NCBI GenBank assembly: GCA_030390025.1
Contig: CM059431.1
Coordinates: forward strand, 120,530,001 to 120,594,000
From: Squalus acanthias
Taxonomy: Eukaryota
Length of the DNA stretch: 64,000 nucleotides
Reading direction: 5' to 3'
Part shown: piece after piece, positions 11,589 through 59,229 of the stretch
Position numbering within the stretch: the first letter of the stretch is position 1
Layout of the letters: each line of letters begins with the position of its first letter
Made by a program: the position numbers and the translations under genes
The notes under the pieces: model-generated
What the model saw: the letters and a program-made list of their open reading frames with translations, nothing else
Told to the model about the DNA's origin: nothing
Database searches by the model: none

Positions 11589-12276
11589 AATATATTTCCT
11601 AATTTCCTGTTGTTCCTTTTCAGCTCAGTTGACTAATGGAGATTTATGTTACTCATTGGTCTCTGTCTACACTGTATTCTTATATTGCTTTCCCCATTAG
11701 TTCTCTAATGACAAGCTTCTTTTACTCGGGTTGCGGTTTTATCATCGGTGTCGGGATGATGGCGGGAGAGCTGGTTTCCTGGTCCCAGTCACGATCCTGG
11801 CTGCAGCCGCTCTGTGAAAGGGATTTTCCCTTGATTGGCCTTGTTCAGTCCACCCTGCGGGCTTCCCGGCCAATTAACAGGAAGCGGGTCTGATGACATC
11901 ATTTGATGACGCGTCATCAGCCGGTTTCCTTAAAGGGACCACGGCCACATTGAGTTTGACAGTTGTTCTGTCAGTGTTTGACAGCATTGAGGTGCTGCAA
12001 ACACTGACATGCACTGCACAAAGGTGGACACTTGCACTCAGGCTCTCAAATGACTCCCTCCATATGCTTATGGAGGGAGTCACAGCGCGCAAGGAGGTCC
12101 TCTTCCCTTCCAAGGGAGGAAGAGACCTCCCCAGGACACTAACGCAGCCTGGTTGCACATCGCATAGGACCAAGGTCTGACATTTTCAAGATGCGGAGAT
12201 GCCGGCGTTGGACTGGGGTGGACAAAAATGAGAATTCGCACAACACCAGGTAATAGTCCAACAGATTTATTTAAAA

Positions 12277-12314
12277 TGACAAGCTTTCGGAGCTGTCGCC
12301 CCTTCCTCAGGTAA
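12277..12314 (-). ncRNA. Minimal type I hammerhead ribozyme (Penelope-associated)
   Basis: TTAC-CTGAGGA-A-GGGGC-GACA-GCTCC-GAAA-GC-TT-GTCA: CUGANGA/GAAA core, 5-bp stem II, palindromic AAGCTT stem III; one stem I mismatch. Confidence 0.75.
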
Positions 12315-13294
12315 AGTTACAATGAGTGAATCTACAATATTTCACAGTATATAAACACAGAAACTACAGAGATACAATCTTTCAGGGAAGGTGTCTTTAC
12401 ATCAAAGACACACCAAGAGCACAGCCAAGACAATGAGACGTGTCACAGGGGGTCCAACGTGTCAAATCCTGCTGTCTGCAGTTGTTTTTTTTGTGGGTTT
12501 TTTTGTGTTTGTGTTTTTTGTGTTTTTTTTTAAAACTGGAAAGACAGACAATGATGTCGAGTCACGTTGTGTAGCGTGACATGAACCCGATATCCCTATT
12601 GAGGCCGTCCTCATGGGTGCTGAACTTGGCTATCAGTTTCTGCTTGATGATTTTGCGTTGTCGTGTGTCTCGAAGGCCGCCTTGGAGAACGCTAACCTGC
12701 AGATCCGAGGCTGAATGCCCTTGACTGCTGAAGTGTTCCCCGACTGGGAGGTGACAATCCTGCCTGGCGATTGTTGCGCGGTGTCCGTTCATACGTTGTA
12801 TGAATGGGCACCGCATATGAATGGGCACCGCGCAACAATCGCCAGGCAGGATTGTCACCTCCCAGTCGGGGAACACTTCAGCAGTCAAGGACATTCAGCC
12901 TCGGATCTGCAGGTTAGCGTTCTCCAAGGCGGCCTTCGAGACACACGACAACGCAAAATCATTGAGCAGAAACTGATAGCCAAGTTCAGCACCCATGAGG
13001 ATGGCCTCAATAGGGATATCGGGTTCATGTCACGCTACAGAACGTGACTCGACATCGTTGTCTGTCTGTCCAGTTTTTAAAAAGAAAACACATTAAAAAC
13101 CCCACAAAAAAACCACAAAAAAAAACAACTGCAGACAGCAGGATTTGACACGTTGGACCCCCTGTGACAATCTTATTGTCTTGGCTGTGCTCTTGGTGTG
13201 TCTTTGATGTAAGGACACCTTCCCTGAAATATTGTATCTCTGCAGTTTCTGTGTTTATATACTGTGAAATATTGTAGATTCACTCATTGTAACT

Positions 13295-13332
13295 TTACCT
13301 GAGGAAGGGGCGACAGCTCCGAAATCTTGTAA
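13295..13332 (+). ncRNA. Minimal type I hammerhead ribozyme (Penelope-associated; stem III palindrome mutated)
   Basis: TTAC-CTGAGGA-A-GGGGC-GACA-GCTCC-GAAA-TC-TT-GTAA; stem I TTAC/GTAA is intact. Confidence 0.7.
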
Positions 13333-13538
13333 TTTTAAATAAATCTGTTGCACTATAACCTGGTGTTGTGCGACTTCTCATTTTTGACTTTTTCAAGGGC
13401 ACTGATGTAGCTGCAATAGATGTCAGCTGCAGTTGAGATGACAGAAGCGATCTGTCAATGGTGAGAGAGGTTATTCCAATGTGATGGCAATGGACATACA
13501 GTTGGCTCTAAACCCTTGCAAGCTAAAGAAATCTCTAT

Positions 13539-14233
13539 GGGGTAAAAACCGGGTAGTGCCCCGAAAAGGTTAGCACCCCAGTGGCCGATTTTCCCAGGTA
13601 GCGCCCCAAGAGGGAGGAGGGGTGCCACTGGAAGTACCCCGTGGCCCCCTTGGGGCGCTGCGAGGCAATATCATGGCGCTATGTGCCGCGGTACTGCAGG
13701 CCTTCCTCCCCTTATTAAAGGGGAGGGCCCTGGCGCAGCGCGTCCCGGCGCCCAGCTGGGCCACCAAGGATCGGGAGTGCCGGCAAACGAGCCTCGATCC
13801 CCTCATGGAGAGCAGCCGGCACCCCACGGGGGGGGCTTCATGGGGACTGGGGACAGCAACGGGGGGCAGGTGCTGGCAGGCGGTCAGCAACAAAAATGGC
13901 CGCCCGCCACCTCCCCTTTAACTAGCGCCGCCCCGGCCACAGGTAGGCCCCCCTGACCCCCTCGGACATAGCGTCCGGTGGTAAGTCGGGGGCCCCACCC
14001 AATATTACAGCCGGGACGCGAGCGGGGCGTGAGCGGGGCACTGCGCACGGTGATGATGTCATCGCCGGCAGCGCAGCACCGCGTGGCGCTAACCGTTAGC
14101 GCTGCCGCTAACCTCCCGCTGAATTTCGCGGGAGGCGTTAGCGGCGCCGCGCCCAGTCGCTAGTTGATTTGCGCCCCCTTAGCGCCCTCTTATGTCGCTA
14201 ACGGGAGGCACAAATCAACCGAATTTAGCCCCC
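13539..14233. mobile_element. GC/CpG-rich Harbinger-type MITE
   Basis: TIRs GGGGTAAAAACCGG / CCGAATTTAGCCCCC; TSD TAT (13536-13538, 14234-14236); the empty site is visible in Harbinger copy 1 at about 4756-4770. Confidence 0.88.
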
Positions 14234-22410: not shown

Positions 22411-23095
22411 CTGAAATGTGGCATTACTTAAAATGTTGAGAGCCAAGGGGTGGAAATTCGTTGGCTCCTGGCTTCTGGTACGAAGGCTGCAACATGCAGC
22501 TGATCCGGGAGGTCCGAGACTGGCCTGAAATTGACCCGTGGGCCTCATCTAAATAATCTGGGCGAGGTGCCAGTGTCTGTCGCTCCTCCACACAGACAGT
22601 TTGACTTTTTGCTGGGTCATATTTCGGGCTTGCCGGCAGTGGCCCTGAAGTAAATGCCAGGGAGAGGAAGGAGAATGAGAGGGGTGCAGATCTCGGTCTG
22701 CAGCTGCCCGTGGGAGGGCTGTGGATCTGGGAGGGGCAATCATGCTCCTCCAGGCTCCACCAGAATGTTTTTAAAATTTTAAGCAACACTAACCTTTTGT
22801 TGGTGAATGACTCCTGACTCCTGCCCCACTCATTGCAGACGAATTTTGTTGAGCATACATAACGGACGTAATGCCTGTTTTAGGTGGCTGCCAGGGACAC
22901 CTGAAAAATGGCCCAGCTAAATTTCAGGTTGGATATTTTTCAGGTGTCCTTGGGTCGCAAAATTGGGAATTCTTGCATCCATTTTACACCAGTCCATTTT
23001 CCACTCCAATCAGATTGAACACTGCTTTATTAAGGAGCTACCTGAAGCCTTGCTTCACCATGCACTATACTACTCAGCAAGACCAAAGAACCATT

Positions 23096-29369: not shown

Positions 29370-32300
29370 TTTTTTTACAATTATATTAGGATAAAGAGAG
29401 CAGTCAGGAGCAATGTTGACCCCTTAAAAACTGATATTGGTGATATTGTCAACAATAATAAGGAAATGGCAGACATGTTGAATAATTACTTTGTGTCAGT
29501 ATTTACAGTAGAGGAAGAGGGTAGCATGCCAGAAATCTCAAGGAATATAATATTGAATCAGGGACAGGGACTCAATAAAATAAACATAAGTAAAATAACA
29601 GTAATGAAGAAAATAATTACACTAAAGAGTGACTAATTCCCTGGGCCGGATGGTTTCCATCCCAGGGTTTTAAAGAAATTAGGTGAGCATATTGCAGATG
29701 CTCTAATTATAATCTTCCAAAGTTCTCTCGATTCAGGAACCGTTCCTTTAGATTGGAAAATCGCACATGTCACTTTGCTATTTAAGAATGGCGAGAGAGA
29801 GAAACCAGGGAATTCTAGACCAGTTAGCCTAACATCTGTTGTTGGGGAATTACTAGAGTCTATAATTAAGGATAGGGTGACTGAACACCTCAAAAATTTT
29901 CAGTTTATCAGAGAGAGCCAGTATGGATTTGTGAAAGGTAGGTCATGCCTGACAAACCTGATTCAATTTTTTGAGGAGGTGACTAAAGTAGTGGACAGGG
30001 GAATGTCTATGGATGTTATTTATATGGACTTCCAGAAGGCATTTGATAAAGTCCCTCATAACAGACTGTTAACTAAGGTAGAAGCCCATGGAATTGAGGG
30101 CAAATTATTGACCTGGTTAGGAAATTGGCTGAGCAGCAGGAGACAGGCCGTAGGGATAATGGGCAGGTACTCAAATTGGCAGGATGTGACTAGTGATGTC
30201 CCACAGGAATCTGTGTTGGGGCCTCAGCTATTCTCAGTATTTATTAAGGACTTAGATGATGGCATAGAAAGTCATATATCCAAATTTGCCAATGATACAA
30301 AGATAGGTGGCATTGTAGGCAGTGTAGATGGAAGCATAAAATTACAAAGGGATATTGATAGATTAAGTGAATGGGCAAAACTGTGGCAAATGGATTTCAG
30401 TGTAGGCAAAGTTGAGGTCACCCACTTTGGACCTAAAAAGGATATAACAGAGTACTTTCTAAATGGTGAAAATCTAAAAACAGTGGAGGTCCAAAGAGAC
30501 TTGGGGGTCCAGGTACAAAGATCATTAAAATGTCATGAACAGGTACAGAAAATAATCAAAAAGGCTAATGGAATGCTGGCCTTTATATCTAGAGGATTAG
30601 AATACAAGGGGGTAGAAGTTATGCTGCAGCTATACAAAGCCCTGGTTAGACCGCACCCGGATTACTGTGAACAGTTCTGGCACCGCACCTTAAGAAGGAT
30701 ATATTGGCCTTGGAGGGAGTGCCGCATAGGTTTACCAAAATGATACCCGAACACAAAGGGGTAAATTACGAGCAGAGATTACACAAATTAGGATTGTATT
30801 CCCTAGAATTTAGAAGGTTAAGGGGTGATCTGCTCGAAGTTTTCAAGATTCAATGATGGTGGAGCCCAGCACATGAGTGTAAAAGACAAGGCTGAAGCAT
30901 TTGCAACCATCTTCAGCCAGAAGTCCCAAGTGGATGATCGATGGCGACCTACTCCTGAGGTCCCCACCATCACAGAAGCCAGCCTTCAGCCAATTCGATT
31001 CACTCCATGTGATATCAAGAAATGGCTGAGCGCACAGGATACAGCACAGGCAATGGACCTCAACAACATCCTGGCTATCGTGCTGAAGACTTGTGCTCCA
31101 GAACTAGCTGTGCCTCTAGCCAAGCTATTCCAGTACAGCTACAATACTGGCATCTATCCGACAATGTGGATAACTGCTCAGGTATGTCCTGTCCACAAAA
31201 AGCAGGACAAATCCAATCTGGCCAATTACCAACCTCACTCCAGCCTTGGTCCAAACATGGACAAAGGAGCTGAATTCCAGAGGTGAGGTGAAAGTGACTG
31301 CCCTTGACATCAAGGCAGCAGTTGACTGAGTGTTGCATCCAGGAGCCCTAGTAAAACTGAAGTCAATGGGAATCATGGGGAAAACTCACCACTGGCTGGA
31401 GTCATACCTAGCTCAAAGGAAGATGGTTGTGATGGTTGAAGGTCAATCATCACAGCCCCAGGACATCGCTGCAGGAGTTCCTCAGGGCAGTGTCCTAGGC
31501 CCAACCATCTTCAACTGCTTCATGAATGACCTTCCCTCCAACATAAGGTCAGAAATGGGGATGTTTGCTGATGATTGCACAGTGTTCAGTGCCATTCACA
31601 ACTCCTCAGATAATGAAGCAGTCCATGTCCGCATGCAACAAGACCTGGACGACGTTCATGCTTGGGCTGATAGGTGACAGGTAACATTCGCGCCACAGAA
31701 GTGCCAGGCAATGGCTATCTCCAACAAGCGAGAGTCTAACCACCGCCCCTTGACATTCAACGGGATTACCATCGCTGAATCCCCCACCATCAACATCCTG
31801 GGGGTCACCATTGACCAGAAACTTAACTGGACCAGCCATGTAAATGCTGTGGCAACAAGAGCAGGTCAGAGGCTAGGTATTCTGTGGCGAGTGTTTCACC
31901 TCCTGACTCCTTAAAGCCTTTCCACCTTCTACAAGTCACAAGTAAGGAATGTGATGGAATACTCTCCACTTGCCTGGATGAGTGCAGCTCCAACAACACT
32001 CAAGAAGCTCGACACCATCCAGGACAAGCAAGCCCACTTGATTGGCAACCCCATCCACCACCTTAAACATTCACTCCCTCCACCACCGGTGTACCGTGGC
32101 TGCAGTGTGTACCATCTACAAGATGCACTGCAGCAACTCGCCAAAGCTTCGTCGGCAGTACCTCCCAAACCCGCGACCTCTTCCAGCTAGAAGGACAAGG
32201 GCAGCAGGTGCATGGGAACACCACCACCTCCAAGTTCCCCTCCAAGCCACACACCATCCTGACTTAGAAGTATATTGCCAATCCTTCATCGTCGCTTGGT

Positions 32301-32828
32301 CAAAATCCTGGAACTCCCTACCTAACAGCACTATGGGAGTATCTTCACCACACGGACTGCAGTGGCTTAAGATGGCGGCTCACCACCACCTTCTCAAGGG
32401 CAACTAGTGATGGGCAATAAATGCTGGCCTTGCCAGCGATGCCCACATCCCATAAACGAATGAAATAAAGTTATTAAGGGAACAGATAGGCTAGAGAGAA
32501 ACTATTTCTGCTGGTTGGGGCGTCTAGGACTGGGGTCATAGTCTAAAAATTAGAGCCAAATCTTCAGGAGTGAAATTAGGAAACACTTCGACACAAAAAG
32601 GGTGATAGAAGTTTGGAACTCTCTTCTGCAAATGGCAATTGATGCTAGATCAATTGTTAATTTTAAACTGAGATTGATAGATTTTTGTTAAACAAACGTA
32701 TTAGGGGATATGGGGCAAAGGCGGGTATATGAAGTTGGTCGCAGATCAGCCATGATCTCACTGAGTGGCTGTACAGGCTCATGGGGCTCAATGGCCTACT
32801 CCTGTTCCTATGTTCCTATGTTTCTATA
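29370..32828 (+). mobile_element. CR1 LINE ORF2 fragment interrupted by another LINE (30849-32468)
   Basis: 322-aa RT frame at 29775-30743 (FADD mutated to FAND). CR1 breaks at GTTTTCAAGAT (about 30848) and resumes at about 32469; tail CCTATGTTCCTATG. Confidence 0.92.
30849..32468 (+). mobile_element. Non-LTR retrotransposon, 5'-truncated (family of 52923-56770)
   Basis: ALDIKAA, PQGSVLGP and MFADD motifs; 3' end GCCCACATCCCATAAACGAATG. Confidence 0.9.
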
Positions 32829-32832
32829 ATAA

Positions 32833-33345
32833 CATTCTTCGGGATGTAGGTGTCGCTGGCAAGGCCAGCATTTCTTGCCCATTTTTACTTGTCATTGAGA
32901 AGTTGGTGGTGAGCCTCCTTGAACCGCTACAGTCAATCTGTAAAAGGTACTCCCACAAAGCTGTTATTTACCGAGTTTCAGGATTTTGGTCCAGCGACAA
33001 TGAAGGAATAGTGATATTTGTCCAAGTCAGAATGGTGTGTGACTTGGAGGGGAACTTGGGGATGTTACCTGCTGCCTTTAACCTTCTATGTGGTGGAGGT
33101 GTTGTTGAAGAAATCGTGGCGACTTGTTGCAGTGCATCCTGTGGATAGTATACACTGCAGCCACAGCACACCAGTGGTGGAGGGAGTGAATGCTTAAGAT
33201 GATGGATGGGACACTGATCAAGTGGACGGCTTTGTCCTGGATGGTGTCAAGCTTTTTTAGTGTTGTTGCAGCTGCAACCATTCAGGCAGGTGGAGGGCAT
33301 TCCATTCCTGATGTTTGGCTTCTAGATGGTGGAGTGAATTTGGGG
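32833..33345 (-). mobile_element. Non-LTR retrotransposon 3' fragment (same family)
   Basis: LKKLDTIQDKAVHLI..HSLHHW; same 3' terminus. Confidence 0.8.
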
Positions 33346-38208: not shown

Positions 38209-38958
38209 GAGGGAAAAATTGGGTTGCTTTGCGCCTCCCGATAGCGCCCCCGGGGAGCACTAATGGGGCACAAAGCCCCTAACGCCTGGGCGCGGTGCCT
38301 GCTAATGCCTCCTGCAAAATTCAGCAGGAGGTTAGCAGCAGCGGTAGCCGGTAGCACCCTGCGACACTGCGCCTCCGGTGATGACGCCATCGCCATGCGC
38401 AGCGCCCCGCTCGTGCCCCGGCCGCAAACTTGGCTTGCACCCCCTGACCTACCGCTGGACAGTATGTCCGACAGGGTCAGGGTGGTGTTTTTGCGGCCGC
38501 GGCGGCGCTAATTAAAAGGCAGGTGCCAGGCGGCCATTTTTTTTGCGCCATCTGCCAGCACCTGCCCCCTTCCGCTTCCGCATACGGGGTGCCAACCGTG
38601 ATCGGTCAGCCCATCACTCCTACTGAGTGTCGGGCTGTTTTCCCGGCACTCCGCTCCCCGGTGGTCCAGCAGGGCCCCGGTGCGCGCTGCATGAGGCATC
38701 CTCCCCTTTAATCAGGGGAGGGAGGCCTGTAATACCGCAGCACTACGTGCCGATGCGCATGGCACTGTTGAGCGTAGCGCCGGGATATTGAATGGTAGCG
38801 CCCCAGGAGGGAGGGGGAGCGCTTCCAGTAGCGCCCCGTCTGCTGCTTGGGCGCTACCACTCAATTTACGGCACAGGGGCGCTAACTTTTTTGGGGCGCT
38901 AAAAGTAGTGCCCCGATGAAGTTAGGGCCCCAAAGGGGACGCAACCAAATTTTTCCCC
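38209..38958. mobile_element. GC/CpG-rich Harbinger-type MITE (related to 13539 and 48763)
   Basis: TIRs GAGGGAAAAATTGGGTTGC / GCAACCAAATTTTTCCCC; TSD CAA; internal blocks shared with 48763-49141. Confidence 0.85.
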
Positions 38959-48399: not shown

Positions 48400-50680
48400 T
48401 ACATACATATGAACATACGAATTAGGAGAAGGAGTAGGCCACTCGGCCCCTCGAGCCTGCTCCGCCATTCAATAAGATCTGATTACTCCACATTCCCGCC
48501 TACCCCCGATAACCTTTCTTCCCCTTGCTTATCAAGAATCTATCTACCTCTGCCTTAAAAATATTCAAAGACTCTGCTTCCACTGCCCTCTGAGGAAGAG
48601 AGTTCCAAAGACTCACGACCCTCTGTGAGAAAAAGTTTCTCCTCATCTCTGTCTTAAATGGGCAACCCCTTATTTTTAAACAGTGACCCCTAGTTCTAGA
48701 TTCTCCCACAAGAGGAAACATCCTCTCCACATCCACCCTGTCCAGACCCCTCAGGAACTTATGGGGGAAAAATGTGGTTGCTTTGCGCCTCCCGTTAGCG
48801 CCCTCTTAGAGCGCTAACGGGGCGCAAAGCAACTAGCCCCCGGGCGCAGCGCCGGCAATGCCTCAGCGGGAGGTTAGCGGCGGCAGTAACCGTTAGCGCC
48901 CTGAGGTGCTGTGCCGCTGGCGATGACGTCATCGCCATGCGCAGCGCCCTGCTCGCACCCTGGCTGTGACCTTCGGGAGTGCCCCAAGACGGAGGCGGGG
49001 TGCTTCCAGTAGCACCCTGCTTCCCTCTTGGGGCGCTACCACTCAATTTCAGCTGTGGGTGCGCTAATTTTTTCGAGACGCTAAAAGTAGTGCCCCGGTG
49101 AAGTTAGCGCCCCAAAGGGGGCGCAAATCAATTTTTCCCCCTATATGTTTCAATCAAGTCACCTCTTACTCTTCTAAACTCCAGCGGATACAAGCCTAGC
49201 CTGTCCAACCTTTCCTCATAAGACAACCCGCCCATTCCAGGTATTAGTCTAGTAAACCTTCTCTGAACTGCTTCCAACGCATTTACATCCTTCTTTAAAT
49301 AAGGAGACCAATACTGTACACAGTACTCCAGATGTGGTCTCACCAATGCCCTGTATAACTGAAGCATAAGCTCCCTACTTTTGTATTCAATTCCCTTCGC
49401 AATAAATGATAACATTCTATTAGCTTTCCTAATTACTTTCTGTACCTGCATACTAACCTTTTGTGATTCATGCACTAGGACACCCAGATCCCTCTGCATC
49501 TCAGAGCTCTGCAATCTCTCACCATTTAGATAATATGCTTCTTTTTTATTCTTCCTGCCAAAATGGACAACTTCACATTTTCCCACATTATACTCCATTT
49601 GCCACTTACTTAACTTATCTATATCCCTTTGTAGCCTCCTTATGTCCTCTTCACAATTTACTTTCCTACCTATCTTTGTGTCATCAGCAAATTTAGCAAC
49701 CATACCTTCGGTCCCTTCATCCAAGTCATTTATATAAATTGTAAAAAGTTGAGGCCCCAGCACTGATCCCTGTGGCACACCACTCATTACATCTTGCCAA
49801 CCAGAAAATGACCCATTTATGCCCACTCTCTGTTTCCTGTTAGCTAGCCAATCTTCTATCCATGCCAATATGTTACCCCCTACACCATGAGCTTTTATTT
49901 TCCGCAATAACCTTTGATGTGGCACCTTATCAAATGCCTTCTGGAAATCTAAGTATAGTACATCCACTGGTTCCCCTTTATCTACAGCGCATGTTACTTC
50001 CTCAAAGAACTCCAATAAATTGGTTAAACATGATTTCCCTTTCATAAAATCATGTTGATTCTGCCTGATTACTTTGAACTTTTCTAAGTGCCCTGCTATA
50101 ACGTCTTTAATAATAGCTTCTAATATCTTCCCTGTGACAGATGTTAAGCTAACTGGCCTGTAGTTTCTTGCTTTCTGTCTCCCTCCCTTTTTGAATAAAG
50201 GAGTTACATTTTCTATTTTCCAATCTAATGGAACCTTCCCCGAATCTAGGGAATTTTGGAAAATTAAAACCAACACATCAACTATCTCACTAGCCACTTC
50301 TTTCAAGACCCTAGGATGAAGTCCATCAGGACCCGGGGACTTGTCAACCCGCAGCTCCAACAATTTGCTCAGTACCACTTCCCTGGTGATTATAATTTTC
50401 TTGCGTTCCTCCCTCCCTCCCATTTCCTGATTTACAGCTATTTCTGGGATGTTACTTGTATCCGCTATAGTGAAGACCGATGCAAAATACCTATTCAATT
50501 CAACTGCCATCTCGTTATTTTCCATTATTAATTCCCCAGACTCACTTTTTATAGGACCCACACTCACTTTGTTAACTTTTCTTTTTTAAATATCCATAAA
50601 AACTCTTACTATCTGTTTTTATATTTCTAGCTAGCTTTCTCTTGTACTCTAATTTTTCTCTCCTTATTCATCTTTTAGCC
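48400..50680 (-). mobile_element. CR1 LINE, 5'-truncated, nested in the 44903-52064 CR1
   Basis: 479-aa open RT frame at 49128-50567 (YLDFQKAFDKVPH, KFADD); GAACATACGAA tail. Confidence 0.93.
48763..49141. mobile_element. GC-rich Harbinger-type MITE
   Basis: TIR GGGGGAAAAAT at both ends; TSD TAT (48760-48762, 49142-49144). Confidence 0.9.
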
Positions 50681-53990: not shown

Positions 53991-55317
53991 TATGACTTCA
54001 GGTCAAGCATGGGTAAGGAAACCTCCTGCTGATTACCACCTACCACCCTCCGTCAGTACTTCTCCATTTTGAACACCACTTGGAAGAAGCACTGAGAGGA
54101 GCAATGGCACAGAATGTACTCTGGGTGGGGGACTTCAATGTCCAATCACCAGGAGTGGCTCGGTAGCACCACTGCCGAGTCCTGAAGGACATAGCTGCCA
54201 GTCTGGCCCTGAGACAGGTGGTGAGAGAACCAACATGAGGGAACAAACTACTTGACCTCGTCCTCACCAGTTGCAGATGCATCTGTCCATGACAGTATTG
54301 GTAACAGTGACCACCGCACAGCCTTCTGGAGATGAAGTCCCGTCTTCACACATCGTGTTGTGTGGCACTACCACCGTGCTAAATGGGATAGGTTCAGAAC
54401 AGATCTATCAGCTCAAAACTGGGCATCCATGAGGTGCTGTGGGCCTTCAGCAGCAGCAGAACTGTATTCCACCACAATCTGTAACCTCATGGCCCAGTAT
54501 ATCTCTCACTCTACCATTACCATGAAGTCAGAGGACCAACCAAAGGTTCAGTAAGGAGTGTAGAAGAGCATGCCAGGAGCAGCACCAGACATACCTAAAA
54601 ATGAGGCCCCAACCTGGGGAAGCTGCAACACAGGACGACATGCATGCTAAAAAGCAGTAGCAGCATGCTGTAGACAGGGCAAAGTGATCTCACAATCAAT
54701 GGATCAGGTCAAAGCTCTGAAGTACTGCCATATCCAGTTGTGAATGGTGGTGGACCATTAAACAACTAACGGTAGGAGGAGGCTCCAAGAATATCCCCAT
54801 CCTCACTGATGGTGGAGCCCAGCACGTGAATGCAAAAGACAAGGCTGAAGCGTTTGCAACCATCTTCAGCCAGAAGTGCCGAGTGGATAATCCACATTGG
54901 CCTCCTCCTGAGGTCCCCACCATCACAGAAACCAGTCTTCAGCCAATTCGATTCACTCCACGTGATATCAAGAAACGGCTGAGCTTGCTGGATACAGCAA
55001 AGGCTATGGGCCCTGACAACATCCTGGCTGTCGGCTGAAGACTTGTGCTCCAGAACTAGCTGTGCTTCTAGCCAAGCTGTTCCAGTACAGCTACAACACT
55101 GGCATCTATCCGACAATGTGGAAAACTGCCCAGGTATGTCCTGTCCACAAAAAACAGGACAAATCCAATCCAGCCAATTACCGCCCCATCAATCTATTCT
55201 CAATCATCAGCAAAGTGATGAAAGGTGTCATCGACAGTGCTACCAAGCGATACTTACTCACCAATAACCTGAGAAGTCGCACAACACCAGGTTATAGTCC
55301 AACAGTTTTATTTGAAA

Positions 55318-55355
55318 TCACAAGCTTTCGGAGCTGCTGCTCCTTCGTCAGGTGA
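55318..55355 (-). ncRNA. Minimal type I hammerhead ribozyme, intact (inverted twin)
   Basis: Exact reverse complement of 55358-55395. Confidence 0.85.
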
Positions 55356-55357
55356 CT

Positions 55358-55395
55358 TCACCTGACGAAGGAGCAGCAGCTCCGAAAGCTTGTGA
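55358..55395 (+). ncRNA. Minimal type I hammerhead ribozyme, intact
   Basis: TCAC-CTGACGA-A-GGAGC-AGCA-GCTCC-GAAA-GC-TT-GTGA: stem I TCAC/GTGA, stem II GGAGC/GCTCC, palindromic AAGCTT. Confidence 0.85.
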
Positions 55396-57347
55396 TTTCA
55401 AATAAAACTGTTGGACTATAACCTGGTGTTGTGCGACTTCTCACTTTTGTCCACCCCAGTCCAACACCGGCATCTCCGCATCATGACCAATAACCTGCTC
55501 ACTGATGCCCAGTTTGGGTTCTGCCAAGACCACTCAGCTCCCGACCTCATCACAGCCTTGGTTCAAACATGGACAAAGGAGCTGAATTCCAGAGGTGAAG
55601 TGAAAGTGACTGCCCTTGATATCAAGGCAGCATTTGATCGCGTGTGGCATCAAGGAGCCCTAGTAAAACTGAAGTCAATGGGAATCGGGGGGAAACTCTC
55701 CACTGGCTGGAGTCATACCTAGCACAAAGGAAGAAGGTTGTGGTGGTTGGAGGTCAATCATCACAGCCCCAGGACATCACTGCAAGAGTTCCTCAGGGCA
55801 GTGTCCTGGGCCTAACCATCTTCAGCTGCTTCATCAATGACCTTCCCTCCAACATAAGGTCAGAAATGGGGATGTTCACTGATGACTGCACAGTGTTCAG
55901 TGCCATTCACAACTCCTCAGATCATGAAGTAGTCCATGCCCACATGCAACAAGACCTGGACGACGTTCAGGCTTGGGCTGATAAGTGGCAGGTAACATTC
56001 ACGCCACACAAGTGCCAGTCAATGACCATCTCTAACAAGCGAGAGTCTAACCACCACCCCTTGACATTCAATGGCATTACCATCGCCAAATCCACCACCA
56101 TCAACATCCTGGGGGGTCACCATTAACCAGAAACTTAACTGGACCAGCCACATAAATACTGTGGCAACAAGAGCAGGTCAGAGGCTAGGTATTCTACGAT
56201 GAGTGTCTCACCTCCTGACTCCCCAAAGCCTTTCCACCATCTACAAGGCACAAGTAAGGAGTGTGATGCAATACTCTCCACTTGCCTGGATGAGTGCAGC
56301 TCCAACAACACTCAAAAAGCTCGACACCATCCAGGACAAAGCAGCCTGCTTGATTGGCACTCCATCTGCCACCTTAAACATTCCCTCCCTCCACCACCAT
56401 GGCTGCAGTGTGTACCATCTACAAGATGCACTGCAGCAACTCGCCAAGGCTTCTTCGGCAGCACCTCCCAAACCTGCGACCTCTTCCACCTAGAAGGACA
56501 AGGGCAGCAGGCGCATGGGAACACCACCACCTCCAACTTCCCCTCCAAGTCACACACCATCCTGACTTGGAAGTATACCGCCGTTCCTTTATCTTTGCTG
56601 GGTCAAAATCCTGGAACTCCTTCCCTAACAGCACTGTGGGAGTACCTTCACTACAGGGACTGCAGCGGTTAAAGAAGGTGACTCACCACCTTCTCAAGGG
56701 CAATTAGGTATGGGCAATAAATGTTGACCTTGCCAGTGATGCCCACATCCCATGAACGAATAAAAAAAAAGTGAACAATGAGATCCAATCCATTTGGCTA
56801 ATATCTATGAGTAGATAGAGTATTATCAGTTTTGCCATTTAATTATTATCAGATCAAATACTGTATGAGGCGTTAGTGGTATCTTGAGTGGTATTCATTT
56901 TAATTCGTACTTTTGAGAAAAGTTTAATGCAATCAGTGGCTATTTCTGTGCACTGAAAATATCTAATTAGCCAATTATTATGGGGTAGAACCAATTAGCT
57001 GACATAACTTTAAATATTCTGAGTTTTCAAAATTCTGACATCACGTCTGCAATGAGTCACTGTTAGACCAAGCTTTATTAATGCTAACAGACTTAAGCAG
57101 AATGCGGATGGCATGCTAATGAGGCCTGGGCCTCAAAATGGCTCAGGCACCACGTTGGCACAAACTGGTGGCTGTGGCAGTCGCTCCATCAACTTAGCAC
57201 CTATTTTGTGCCCTACTTGCAACTTTCTGCAACTCCAGCAGCTTTATTAACTTCTTTCAAGGTTCGAAGGTAACGGAGTGTTGTTGCATGTGCAAAACGC
57301 CTTCATTGTTATTTACAGGCTTTTGCTCACAACACTTGCTCACAGTC

Positions 57348-58480
57348 ATGGGGGCTGTACTGGCAGTTCTGCCCTCGCTCGACTACCTTCGGGAGAGGGA
57401 GCGGAGGCAGCGAAGAAGAGGAGAAGATGCGCGCAGAGGGAGGAGGAGGGCTAGGATGACTCTCAACAGGAGGCCTTACCCACCTAGGGTCTTCCGAAAG
57501 CAGATCTGTGTTATCCACTTAAGTGAGGAGCAGTGTATTAGGAGGCTCTGCATCACCAGGGAGGTGGTCACAAAACTCTGCCACTTCCTGCAACCAGACC
57601 TGCAGCCTGAGAGCAGGGCAAACATGGCTCTTCCAGTGGCAGTCAAGTTCACCGTGGCCCTCAATTTCTTCACCAGTGGATCCTTCCAGTCTGCAGCAGG
57701 AGACATAGCTAACATCTCACAGTTCGCTGTCCATCGCTGCATCCGGGAGGTCACTGAGGCTCTCTACACCAGGAGAAGGGACTACGTTGTCGTCTCTCTG
57801 AACAGAGAGAAGCAGGACGAGCGCTCAGATAGCGGGCCTCCCCTTAGTGTCAGGTGCCATTGACTGCACCCACATGGCTCTGCAGGTGCTGTATAACAAT
57901 CCTGGGATCTTCCGTAACCACAAAGGCTACCACTCACTTAATGTGCAGTTGGTGTGTGACCACGCACAGCGAATCCTCAATGTCAATACCTGCTATGCTG
58001 GCAGCAGCCAGGATACCGTCATCCTGCGTCAGACCGGTGTGCCAGCACTCTTCCTCCCACCACAGCAAACTCGAGGGTGACTGCTCGGAGACAAGTGCTA
58101 TCCACTCTGCACCTGGCTCATGACTCCCCTCTGCAACCCCAACACTCGTGCCCAGCCCTCATATAATGAGAGCCATGCTGCCACCAGGAACATCATAGAG
58201 CAAACCATCGGGCTACTGAAGCAACGGTTCCGTTGCCTTGATCGCATGGGAGGGGCCCTCCAGTACACGCCGGAGCTGCGTTCTTCACTACTTGGCCATC
58301 TTGAGGGCACACCCCTTGCCAGCAGGGATTGTGGAACCACCTCAGGAGGAGGACGAGGGAGAGGAGGAGAAGGAGGAGGAGGAGGAACAAGAGGAAGAGG
58401 AGGGAGGTAGGATGCAGGCAGCCAATTCCCCTTCTGGACGTGCTGTCCGTGAATGCCTCATCAGACTCCGATTCCAATTA
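57348..58480 (+). pseudogene. PIF/Harbinger DDE transposase (HARBI1-like), frameshifted, with an internal stop
   Basis: [60 protein letters not shown] and [18 protein letters not shown]. Confidence 0.92.
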
Positions 58481-58655
58481 ATGAAATCCCAGATCCCTGT
58501 TGCTCACCACAACCCTATCATACCATCCCTCTGTCATGGAATATCAGTGTCCTCCTGGGCACAAAGCTGAAATGAGAGACACCACAAAAGATTCCAAACA
58601 AAATAAATAAATTTATGAAAAATCAATTCACACATATTTACATTAACAATATGAA

Positions 58656-59229
58656 CTAATCACCATTGTGCAATCCCTTAGTGCCTGTCGTTCGGGTGCC
58701 CTTTCCTGTCCTCGTGCTCCTACAAAGTGCTCCCCCAGTGGCTACAGCACGGCTGGCGGAAGGCTGCTGAGATTCCATGGGGGAGACTTTAGATGGTCTT
58801 GCAGGACAACCTCGAAGAGCTCTGACCCCAGAAGGCCCGGCTGCAGACTGCACCACCTCGGCATGGGCGGCAGCAGTCTGGGCTGGCTGGCTGACAGACG
58901 GCGGCAAGGCAATGGCAGAGTGGCAGTGATGGGAACAGGAATGTTGTCATCTTGAGAGAGGAGAGCACAGTCCTGCTCCACTGACTCACTGCCACTCCCC
59001 CGGGGCGGCGCCTCAGCATTCCTAGCAATCTGTTGGAGCACAGATTGCTGGGCTGCTGTGACCCCCTGGAAGCTCCGGTCGACAGTGGTAAATGCAGCCA
59101 CGATGGCAGCAGTCTGAACTTGGGTGGCAGCAAGCTGAGACTGCATGACAGCGGCTTGAGCATCGGTGGTATCAAGCTGAGACTGATGAGAGCAGTCTGT
59201 GCTTCCATTGTATCACTAAGACGGTGCAC
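58656..59229 (-). pseudogene. C-terminal exon of the convergent Harbinger partner gene (A/Q/S/P-rich)
   Basis: Open low-complexity frames converge on the transposase; AT-rich spacer with AATAAA at about 58600; cut at about 59230 by a SINE tail. Confidence 0.55.

What the first reader, a model, noticed from the sequence alone, without database searches (positions are those of the whole stretch)
55260..55497. Perfect palindromic mini-Penelope consisting of two back-to-back hammerhead ribozymes
Seen: a ~215-nt insert with a perfect 12-bp TSD, two exact 86-bp inverted arms and a 2-nt loop. Each arm begins at stem I of an intact hammerhead motif (CUGACGA..GAAA-GC-UU, palindromic stem III), and there is no coding sequence. 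Known: Penelope-like elements carry minimal type I hammerheads thought to cleave as dimers, and often insert as inverted truncated copies with a short one-sided tail. Inference: the fold-back point coincides with the ribozyme 5' boundary. This may be a recurrent non-autonomous ribozyme-only unit, or an RT stall/template switch at the ribozyme. A transcript from either strand would contain one ribozyme plus its full antisense, giving a self-silencing hairpin and potential dsRNA source. Zero arm mismatches suggest a recent insertion.
Basis: partly seen in the sequence, partly recalled or inferred. Interest (0 to 1): 0.72.

Follow-up and report, generated by a model that had tools for sequence, protein, structure and literature searches.

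The report
Fold-back stub of shark Penelope retroelement
This 214-base hairpin is the extreme end of a Penelope-like jumping gene copied twice, head to head, during one insertion into an old repeat; the layout is a known by-product of these elements, and the only open point is whether the small ribozyme motif makes this turning point a favourite one.

Summary
The anatomy is real: 12-bp TSD, 86-nt perfect arms with a 2-nt loop, a 42-nt one-sided tail, and a minimal type I hammerhead motif on each strand, inserted in a decayed LINE RT gene. It is the 3' end of a shark Penelope-like element with a Neptune-type linker. A second copy in the window (12178-13397) has the same outer ends and still encodes the endonuclease C-terminus, but turns 479 nt further upstream. 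The head-to-head, tailed, TSD-flanked layout is described for these elements. In both copies the tailed arm is the longer at a 2-3-nt-loop junction, which fits first-strand cDNA snapping back on itself. The two hammerheads are on opposite strands, never share a transcript, and are disfavoured by about 60 kcal/mol against the hairpin. A recurrent ribozyme-only unit is not supported. One detail survives: the turn lies in the 5' strand of stem I, which is a 4-bp micro-palindrome in both copies, so it may be a hotspot. This is untested because no genome was held. The scan noted such stubs before, in this genome and others. New member of a known kind; interest 0.2.

The parts
55260..55271 (+). Left copy of 12-bp target site duplication (host LINE RT codons T-N-N-L)
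   Evidence: host frame ends ...YLLTNNL here and restarts TNNLLTDAQFGF at 55486
55270..55355 (-). Tail-less arm: inverted copy of the element's 3' end; first 2 nt shared with the TSD
55311..55361 (-). Hammerhead motif on the minus strand: core starts 55351, predicted cut after 55322; stem I is 9 bp because it borrows the junction
55352..55361 (+). Fold-back junction GTGA-CT-TCAC = 5' strand of extended stem I; 4-bp micro-palindrome with 2-nt loop; the sister copy has GTAA-CT-TTAC at the same place
55352..55402 (+). Minimal type I hammerhead motif: stem I 55353-61 with 55392-400, core CUGACGA 55362-68, bulged A 55369, stem II 55370-83, GAAA 55384-87, palindromic AGCU stem III, predicted cut after U55391
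55358..55443 (+). Tailed arm (element sense strand; inferred first-strand cDNA is its complement)
55444..55485 (+). 42-nt one-sided tail ending in ATG; shared with the sister copy
55486..55497 (+). Right copy of the TSD
54800..56600 (+). Host: decayed APE-RT LINE (CR1/L2-like, clade label recalled), about 90% identical to a sibling at 30850-32296; bounds are those of the aligned part
12178..13397 (.). Sister insertion of the same family: about 1.2-kb head-to-head palindrome, 13-bp TSD with 1 mismatch, tail on the left arm only, arms about 575 nt and 94% identical, fold-back at 12799 inside the GIY-YIG coding sequence

Best explanation
A dead-end, severely 5'-truncated insertion of a shark Penelope-like element (Neptune-type linker). 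Inferred steps: the element's endonuclease cut the host LINE with a 12-nt stagger; reverse transcription began at the end of the tail and copied 128-134 nt of uncleaved RNA through the hammerhead; it stopped in the 5' strand of stem I; the cDNA 3' end (..GTGAAGTCAC) snapped back on itself and was extended along its own strand for 84-86 nt, to the tail boundary; it was then joined to the other target end through a 2-nt overlap and repaired. The result is a perfect head-to-head palindrome with a one-sided tail. Any transcript across it makes the antisense arm first and folds into an 84-bp duplex, so the hammerhead should be inactive and the stub is at most a passive dsRNA source. Shown from sequence: family identity, anatomy, host interruption, junction geometry. 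Inferred: order of synthesis, self-priming, inactivity.
For: Same two outer ends in 2 of 2 family copies in the window: tail-less arm stops at 55441-43 against the equivalent of 55447-49; tail ends at 55485 against the equivalent of 55481-82. This matches the two RT start sites flanking the tail reported for the Anolis element (PMC11167929). Fold-back points differ by 479 nt. In 2 of 2 copies the tailed arm runs further at the junction and its last 2-4 nt pair with bases 2-3 nt back, which independent truncation of two cDNAs would not predict. Self-priming at palindromic inverted junctions was proposed in PMC3846280. Hammerhead cleavage is not needed for insertion in vitro and uncut RNA is the main template, which fits cDNA running past the cut site here. 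Hairpin -164.2/-172.4 kcal/mol against -103.6/-112.8 with stems I and II forced. Host RT homologues align in two pieces that overlap at the TSD codons.
Against: Only 2 copies were examined, and no genome-wide tabulation was possible. The junction falls on one of only 8 of 593 positions of the sister arm that allow a >=4-bp snap-back, which may be more than an arbitrary truncation. The snap-back hairpin is weak (-0.3 kcal/mol). The in vitro data come from a Poseidon-clade element, not this clade. The locus was not checked against reads.
Confidence: 0.72

Rival explanations
1. Same by-product, but stem I is a true hotspot: RT pauses on leaving the hammerhead helix, and the self-complementary 5' strand of stem I primes fold-back, so fixed-length stubs of about 215 nt arise again and again from full-length RNA. 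This refines the best explanation and can hold alongside it.
For: The micro-palindrome is kept in both copies through matched changes (GTGA-CT-TCAC and GTAA-CT-TTAC), and 12320 is 1 of 8 of 593 positions with a >=4-bp snap-back. One contig of run X2 leaves the element at 12317, inside the same strand, and resumes at 12227, the tail boundary: 1 of the 7 joints listed (orientation not given).
Against: The sister copy read through this site and turned at a 2-bp site, of which there are 109 of 593. The covariation is not significant (38 of 500 shuffles reach it; two independent lineages). No strand-change joint was listed at this site, but none was listed anywhere, so that is no test. This locus was picked because it looked neat.
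Confidence: 0.3
2. Two cDNAs were made, one from each target end and each RT start site (the enzyme extends both strands in vitro), and were joined through the GTGA/TCAC microhomology.
For: PAc cleaves and extends both strands, from two start sites that flank the tail. This explains directly why the short arm stops at the tail boundary.
Against: It does not explain why both arms end within 2-3 nt of each other in 2 of 2 copies with arm lengths of 86 and about 575 nt.
Confidence: 0.15
3. A self-propagating non-autonomous palindromic ribozyme element, mobilised as a unit by the Penelope protein.
For: Clean TSD, intact motif and perfect arms. pLTR sequences can be mobilised in trans in rotifers, and tandem retrozymes derive from PLE ends.
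Against: No second copy of the unit in 64 kb. Its RNA would bury both the hammerhead and the inner start site in a duplex. It ends at the tail, whereas PAc needs RNA out to +172 with its main start at +111-118 (cross-clade analogy). Retrozymes are head-to-tail, not head-to-head.
Confidence: 0.05
4. The perfect symmetry is secondary: an older or longer inverted insertion was shortened by central deletion or homogenised by hairpin repair or gene conversion, or the assembly mirrored it.
For: Long palindromes are deletion-prone (general knowledge). The sister copy shows a later 16-17-nt duplication at its junction. The locus was not checked with reads.
Against: TSD is 12 of 12 and the tail is intact. 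The loop bases CT match the parent's stem I strand, as a primary fold-back predicts. The sister copy's arms are not homogenised (22 of 535 differences).
Confidence: 0.08

Closest known systems
Head-to-head inverted insertions of endonuclease-bearing Penelope-like elements (Adineta vaga Pen families, PMC3846280, passages read; general scheme in PMC8557442, passages read)
   Same: Inverted 5'-truncated copy joined at the 5' end, 30-40-bp tail on one end only, short TSD (8-10 bp there, 12-13 here), palindrome at the junction read as self-priming.
   Different: Far shorter: no ORF and only 128-134 nt of the element. The junction lies inside hammerhead stem I, which the passages read do not mention.
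Minimal hammerheads of metazoan PLEs (Cervera and de la Pena 2014, PMC4209133, parts 1-2 of 4 read)
   Same: Type I core, 4-bp stem I, unpaired base before stem II, G10.1-C11.1 pair, palindromic stem III remnant. The paper already notes pairs of motifs on opposite strands about 100-700 bp apart in Schistosoma.
   Different: Here the two cores start 11 nt apart, closer than that range. Stem II is 5 bp. Sharks are not named in the parts read.
Poseidon element of Anolis (PAc; PMC11167929, parts 1-2 of 4 read)
   Same: Two outer ends 30-45 nt apart that match two RT start sites; the hammerhead is copied uncut.
   Different: Different clade: relatives of this family carry a CX4CxxC linker, absent from Penelope/Poseidon. 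The paper does not explain inverted junctions in the parts read.
Non-LTR retrozymes (bioRxiv 10.64898/2026.07.22.740005, part 1 of 5 and passages read)
   Same: Non-coding, PLE-derived, type I hammerhead; reported in one chondrichthyan.
   Different: Retrozymes are tandem direct repeats with two motifs on one strand; this is a single inverted pair.

Membership tests
Penelope-like element (EN+), derived fragment | Homology to the end of an element encoding RT plus C-terminal GIY-YIG endonuclease | tested here: met
   134 nt at 89.6% to the sister copy, whose arms encode residues 567-642 of the 643-aa shark RT-EN protein P0001 at 87%. The stub itself codes for nothing.
Penelope-like element (EN+), derived fragment | Inverted 5'-truncated copy with a one-sided 30-40-bp tail | tested here: met
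   Tail 42-44 nt here and 32-35 nt in the sister copy; definition from PMC8557442.
Penelope-like element (EN+), derived fragment | Short TSD | tested here: met
   12 of 12; the host reading frame repeats TNNL on both sides.
Neptune/Nematis-type PLE | CX2-5CxxC linker between RT and EN | tested here: met
   Seen in relatives P0001 (CHSNLCKTC) and P0015; not in the window, whose copies are truncated downstream of it. Definition.
Neptune clade | RT phylogeny | not tested
   No tree was built; Neptune versus Nematis is not resolved here.
Minimal type I hammerhead of PLEs | Core CUGANGA..GAAA..UH, stems I and II, palindromic stem III remnant | tested here: met
   Descriptor hits on both arms; a relaxed scan found 4 hits in the window, all 4 in family arms; 47 of 48 cells paired.
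Minimal type I hammerhead of PLEs | Match to a curated Rfam hammerhead model | tested here: not met
   no hammerhead at gathering score; HH10 17 of 75 bits.
Minimal type I hammerhead of PLEs | Self-cleavage as a dimer | not testable with these tools
   Needs an assay; folding predicts the full palindrome is locked.
Non-LTR retrozyme | At least two consecutive direct units each with a hammerhead on one strand | tested here: not met
   One motif per strand, inverted; definition.
Non-autonomous mobile family (MITE- or SINE-like) | Many copies with identical ends and junction | tested here: inconclusive
   1 copy in 64 kb; genome not held; contigs uninformative on fold-backs.

The most novel reading that the evidence does not exclude
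The 5' strand of hammerhead stem I in this shark family is a conserved self-complementary sequence that acts as a built-in stop-and-snap-back site for the element's reverse transcriptase. The ribozyme would then shape insertion products without cleaving, and the family would repeatedly lay down fixed-length hairpins of about 215 nt: ready dsRNA substrates that could feed silencing or A-to-I editing of the element itself.
Probability: 0.25. Interest if true: 0.45.

Novelty: new member of a known kind. Interest (0 to 1): 0.2.

Why it matters
How Penelope-like elements make their inverted, tailed insertions is still unsolved (stated in PMC8557442, passages read). A fresh, mismatch-free, very short copy shows all three joints base by base, and with the sister copy it favours cDNA self-priming. 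It is also a compact substrate design for the existing in vitro system. If stem I proved a hotspot, it would give the PLE hammerhead a role other than cleavage. As it stands it is one tidy fossil of a known pattern.

Tried and rejected
Genome-wide tabulation of fold-back points: not possible, no whole genome is held. Pattern scans for more copies: 0 in viral contigs, 0 in both metagenome scans, 1 match in a bacterial MAG (L001; not examined, taken as chance). Sequencing runs: no RNA holder listed, so nothing on expression; best share of words 0.51. Laying 4 of the 24 runs on the sister arm: X2 gave 7587 contig pieces (the family is abundant there), X22 9 reads, X23 and X24 none. No strand-change joint was listed at any position, so fold-back positions were not measured. 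Summed depth in the coding bins (0.2-2.0 million) was of the same order as in the tail and hammerhead bins (1.3-3.9 million), but the tool warns that this is no copy number, so it is not used as evidence. Rfam microRNA hits on the hairpin are all far below gathering score and rejected. nhmmer found no further family copies in the window beyond the 4 arms. Paper searches found no description of this shark family or of fold-back at hammerhead stem I: penelope+hammerhead+inverted+palindrom (3 papers), penelope+palindromic+shark+inverted (3), 3 of penelope/palindromic/non-autonomous/neptune (20), penelope+fold-back+retrotransposon+hairpin (2), 3 of penelope/UCON/Eulor/palindrom (11), penelope+neptune+shark+retrotransposon (0); most were seen as listings only, subscription journals and Repbase/Dfam are not covered, and no supplements were read. 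Lunse et al. on dimer cleavage is not held; it was seen only through a review's passages (PMC6765202). A link to palindromic ancient vertebrate repeats (recalled lead) was not supported by the passages of PMC5753468.

Full report
Observation. The sequence is as described. A 12-bp direct repeat (55260-55271, 55486-55497) encloses 214 nt; arms 55270-55355 and 55358-55443 are 86 of 86 complementary around CT, and a 42-nt tail follows the right arm. Two arm bases overlap the left TSD. The host is a decayed LINE RT gene (RVT_1, E 9.6e-16): its frame ends ...YLLTNNL at the left TSD and restarts TNNLLTDAQFGF at the right one, and homologues align in two pieces that overlap there, so the TSD is a real duplication of host sequence. 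A hammerhead descriptor hit both arms and one arm of a sister copy, against 1 hit in 30 simulated windows; a relaxed scan gave 4 hits, all in family arms. Rfam models do not reach threshold.

Identity. The window holds one more copy of the family, at 12178-13397: a 1.2-kb head-to-head palindrome, arms 543 of 575 identical, 13-bp TSD with one mismatch, tail on one arm. It is 89.6% identical to the stub over 134 nt. Its arms encode the last 74-76 residues of a GIY-YIG endonuclease; the best relatives are shark proteins (P0001, 88%, 643 aa, with RT). P0001 and P0015 carry a CX4CxxC linker before the endonuclease, the mark of Neptune/Nematis elements (definition in PMC8557442). The window is therefore from a shark (inference) and the stub is the 3' end of such an element. 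In run X2, 7587 contig pieces lay on the sister arm, so the family is abundant there.

Outer ends. Both copies have a tailed end and a tail-less end at nearly the same places (within about 6 nt and 4 nt), with a 2-nt overlap with the target at the tail-less end. In the Anolis element the tail is the stretch between two RT start sites, both target strands are cut and extended, and hammerhead cleavage is not needed (PMC11167929). Inverted 5'-truncated copies with a one-sided 30-40-bp tail are the standard layout (PMC8557442; PMC3846280), and opposite-strand hammerhead pairs about 100-700 bp apart were noted in 2014 (PMC4209133).

Inner junction. The stub turns at GTGA-CT-TCAC (55352-55361). The sister copy reads GTAA-CT-TTAC at the same place, so the plus-strand, tailed arm includes the loop bases and the turn is inside the 5' strand of an extended stem I: 4 bp, a 2x2 loop, 3 bp. 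Two stem I pairs change on both sides between the copies, but with two lineages this is not significant (38 of 500 shuffles). The sister copy turns at 12799, 479 nt upstream, at CATAC-GTT-GT; contigs show the parent continuing differently after 12799, so again the tailed arm is the longer and its last 2 nt pair 3 nt back. A 16-17-nt duplication follows there. Two of two junctions with 2-3-nt loops fit a first-strand cDNA that folds back on itself better than two independently truncated cDNAs (inference). PMC3846280 proposed self-priming on an antisense template for such junctions; the cDNA is such a strand (my reading).

Is the ribozyme boundary special? For: only 8 of 593 positions on the sister's cDNA strand allow a >=4-bp snap-back, and the stem I strand is one; one contig in X2 leaves the element at 12317 and resumes at the tail boundary, 1 of 7 joints listed, orientation not given. 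Against: the sister copy passed the site and turned at a 2-bp site (109 of 593 positions); the hairpin is weak (-0.3 kcal/mol); the locus was selected for neatness from an abundant family. Unchecked notes of this scan report other lengths: 1.8-kb arms in this genome, and 225- and 295-base stubs in other genomes. I could not tabulate junctions, and one search listed no strand-change joints at all, so it is no test.

Function. The two motifs lie on opposite strands and read outward from the centre, so no transcript holds both, and the dimer that these minimal ribozymes need (PMC4209133; review PMC6765202) cannot form in cis. On either strand the antisense arm is made first; the hairpin is about 60 kcal/mol more stable than a fold with stems I and II forced. 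The stub ends at the tail, whereas the Anolis protein needs RNA to +172 with its main start at +111-118, so by cross-clade analogy it lacks the binding site for another jump. If transcribed it would be a good dsRNA substrate; Penelope repeats are heavily edited in lizard and palindromic repeats in frog (PMC5625713, passages). No expression data were obtained, and no host gene was identified in the window's long ORFs (not a gene search).

Age. 0 of 84 arm mismatches bounds arm divergence below 3.5% (95%), against 22 of 535 in the sister copy outside its A-rich tract. It is probably younger than the sister, unless the arms were homogenised.

Verdict. A real, clean, very short example of a known Penelope-like insertion product; new member of a known kind. 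The self-propagating unit is unlikely (0.05). A fold-back hotspot in stem I remains open (about 0.25-0.3) and is easy to test with the assembly. Interest 0.2.

Noticed in passing
window 55260-55271 against 55418-55425: The TSD shares an exact 8-mer (ATAACCTG) with the element's own arm; 347 of 20000 random 12-mers from the window do as well. It may reflect an endonuclease preference for pLTR-like targets, or chance.
   Followed up: partly
window 12800-12832: A 16-17-nt tandem duplication at the sister copy's junction; both units share two changes that the other arm lacks, so it probably arose after insertion.
   Followed up: partly
window 55483-55485: The tail ends in ATG, possibly the start codon of the element's ORF; no parent sequence was on hand to test it (one search found no match to family protein N-termini).
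   Followed up: partly
window 30850-32296: A sibling of the host LINE lacks the roughly 130 host bases that span the stub's insertion site, so it cannot serve as an empty site.
   Followed up: partly
window 32374-32918: 78-nt inverted pair (85%) around a 389-nt LINE fragment; looks like two opposed LINE 3' ends.
   Followed up: no
window 22889-22955: Imperfect 31-bp hairpin with a sub-threshold mir-87 score (36 of 49 bits); possibly a small DNA-transposon remnant.
   Followed up: no
window 13587-13672, 38787-38865, 49018-49125: Three short inverted-repeat elements that share a TAGCGCCCC motif; likely one MITE-like family.
   Followed up: no
window 57198-59212: Two ORFs on opposite strands next to the host LINE that resemble Harbinger transposase and partner genes (resemblance recalled; Pfam gave no hit above cut-off).
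   Followed up: no
proteins P0003, P0010, P0019, P0020, P0023 and others: Several shark gene models in public sets include translated pieces of this element; P0020 (septin 5a isoform) also includes the hammerhead and tail region.
   Followed up: no
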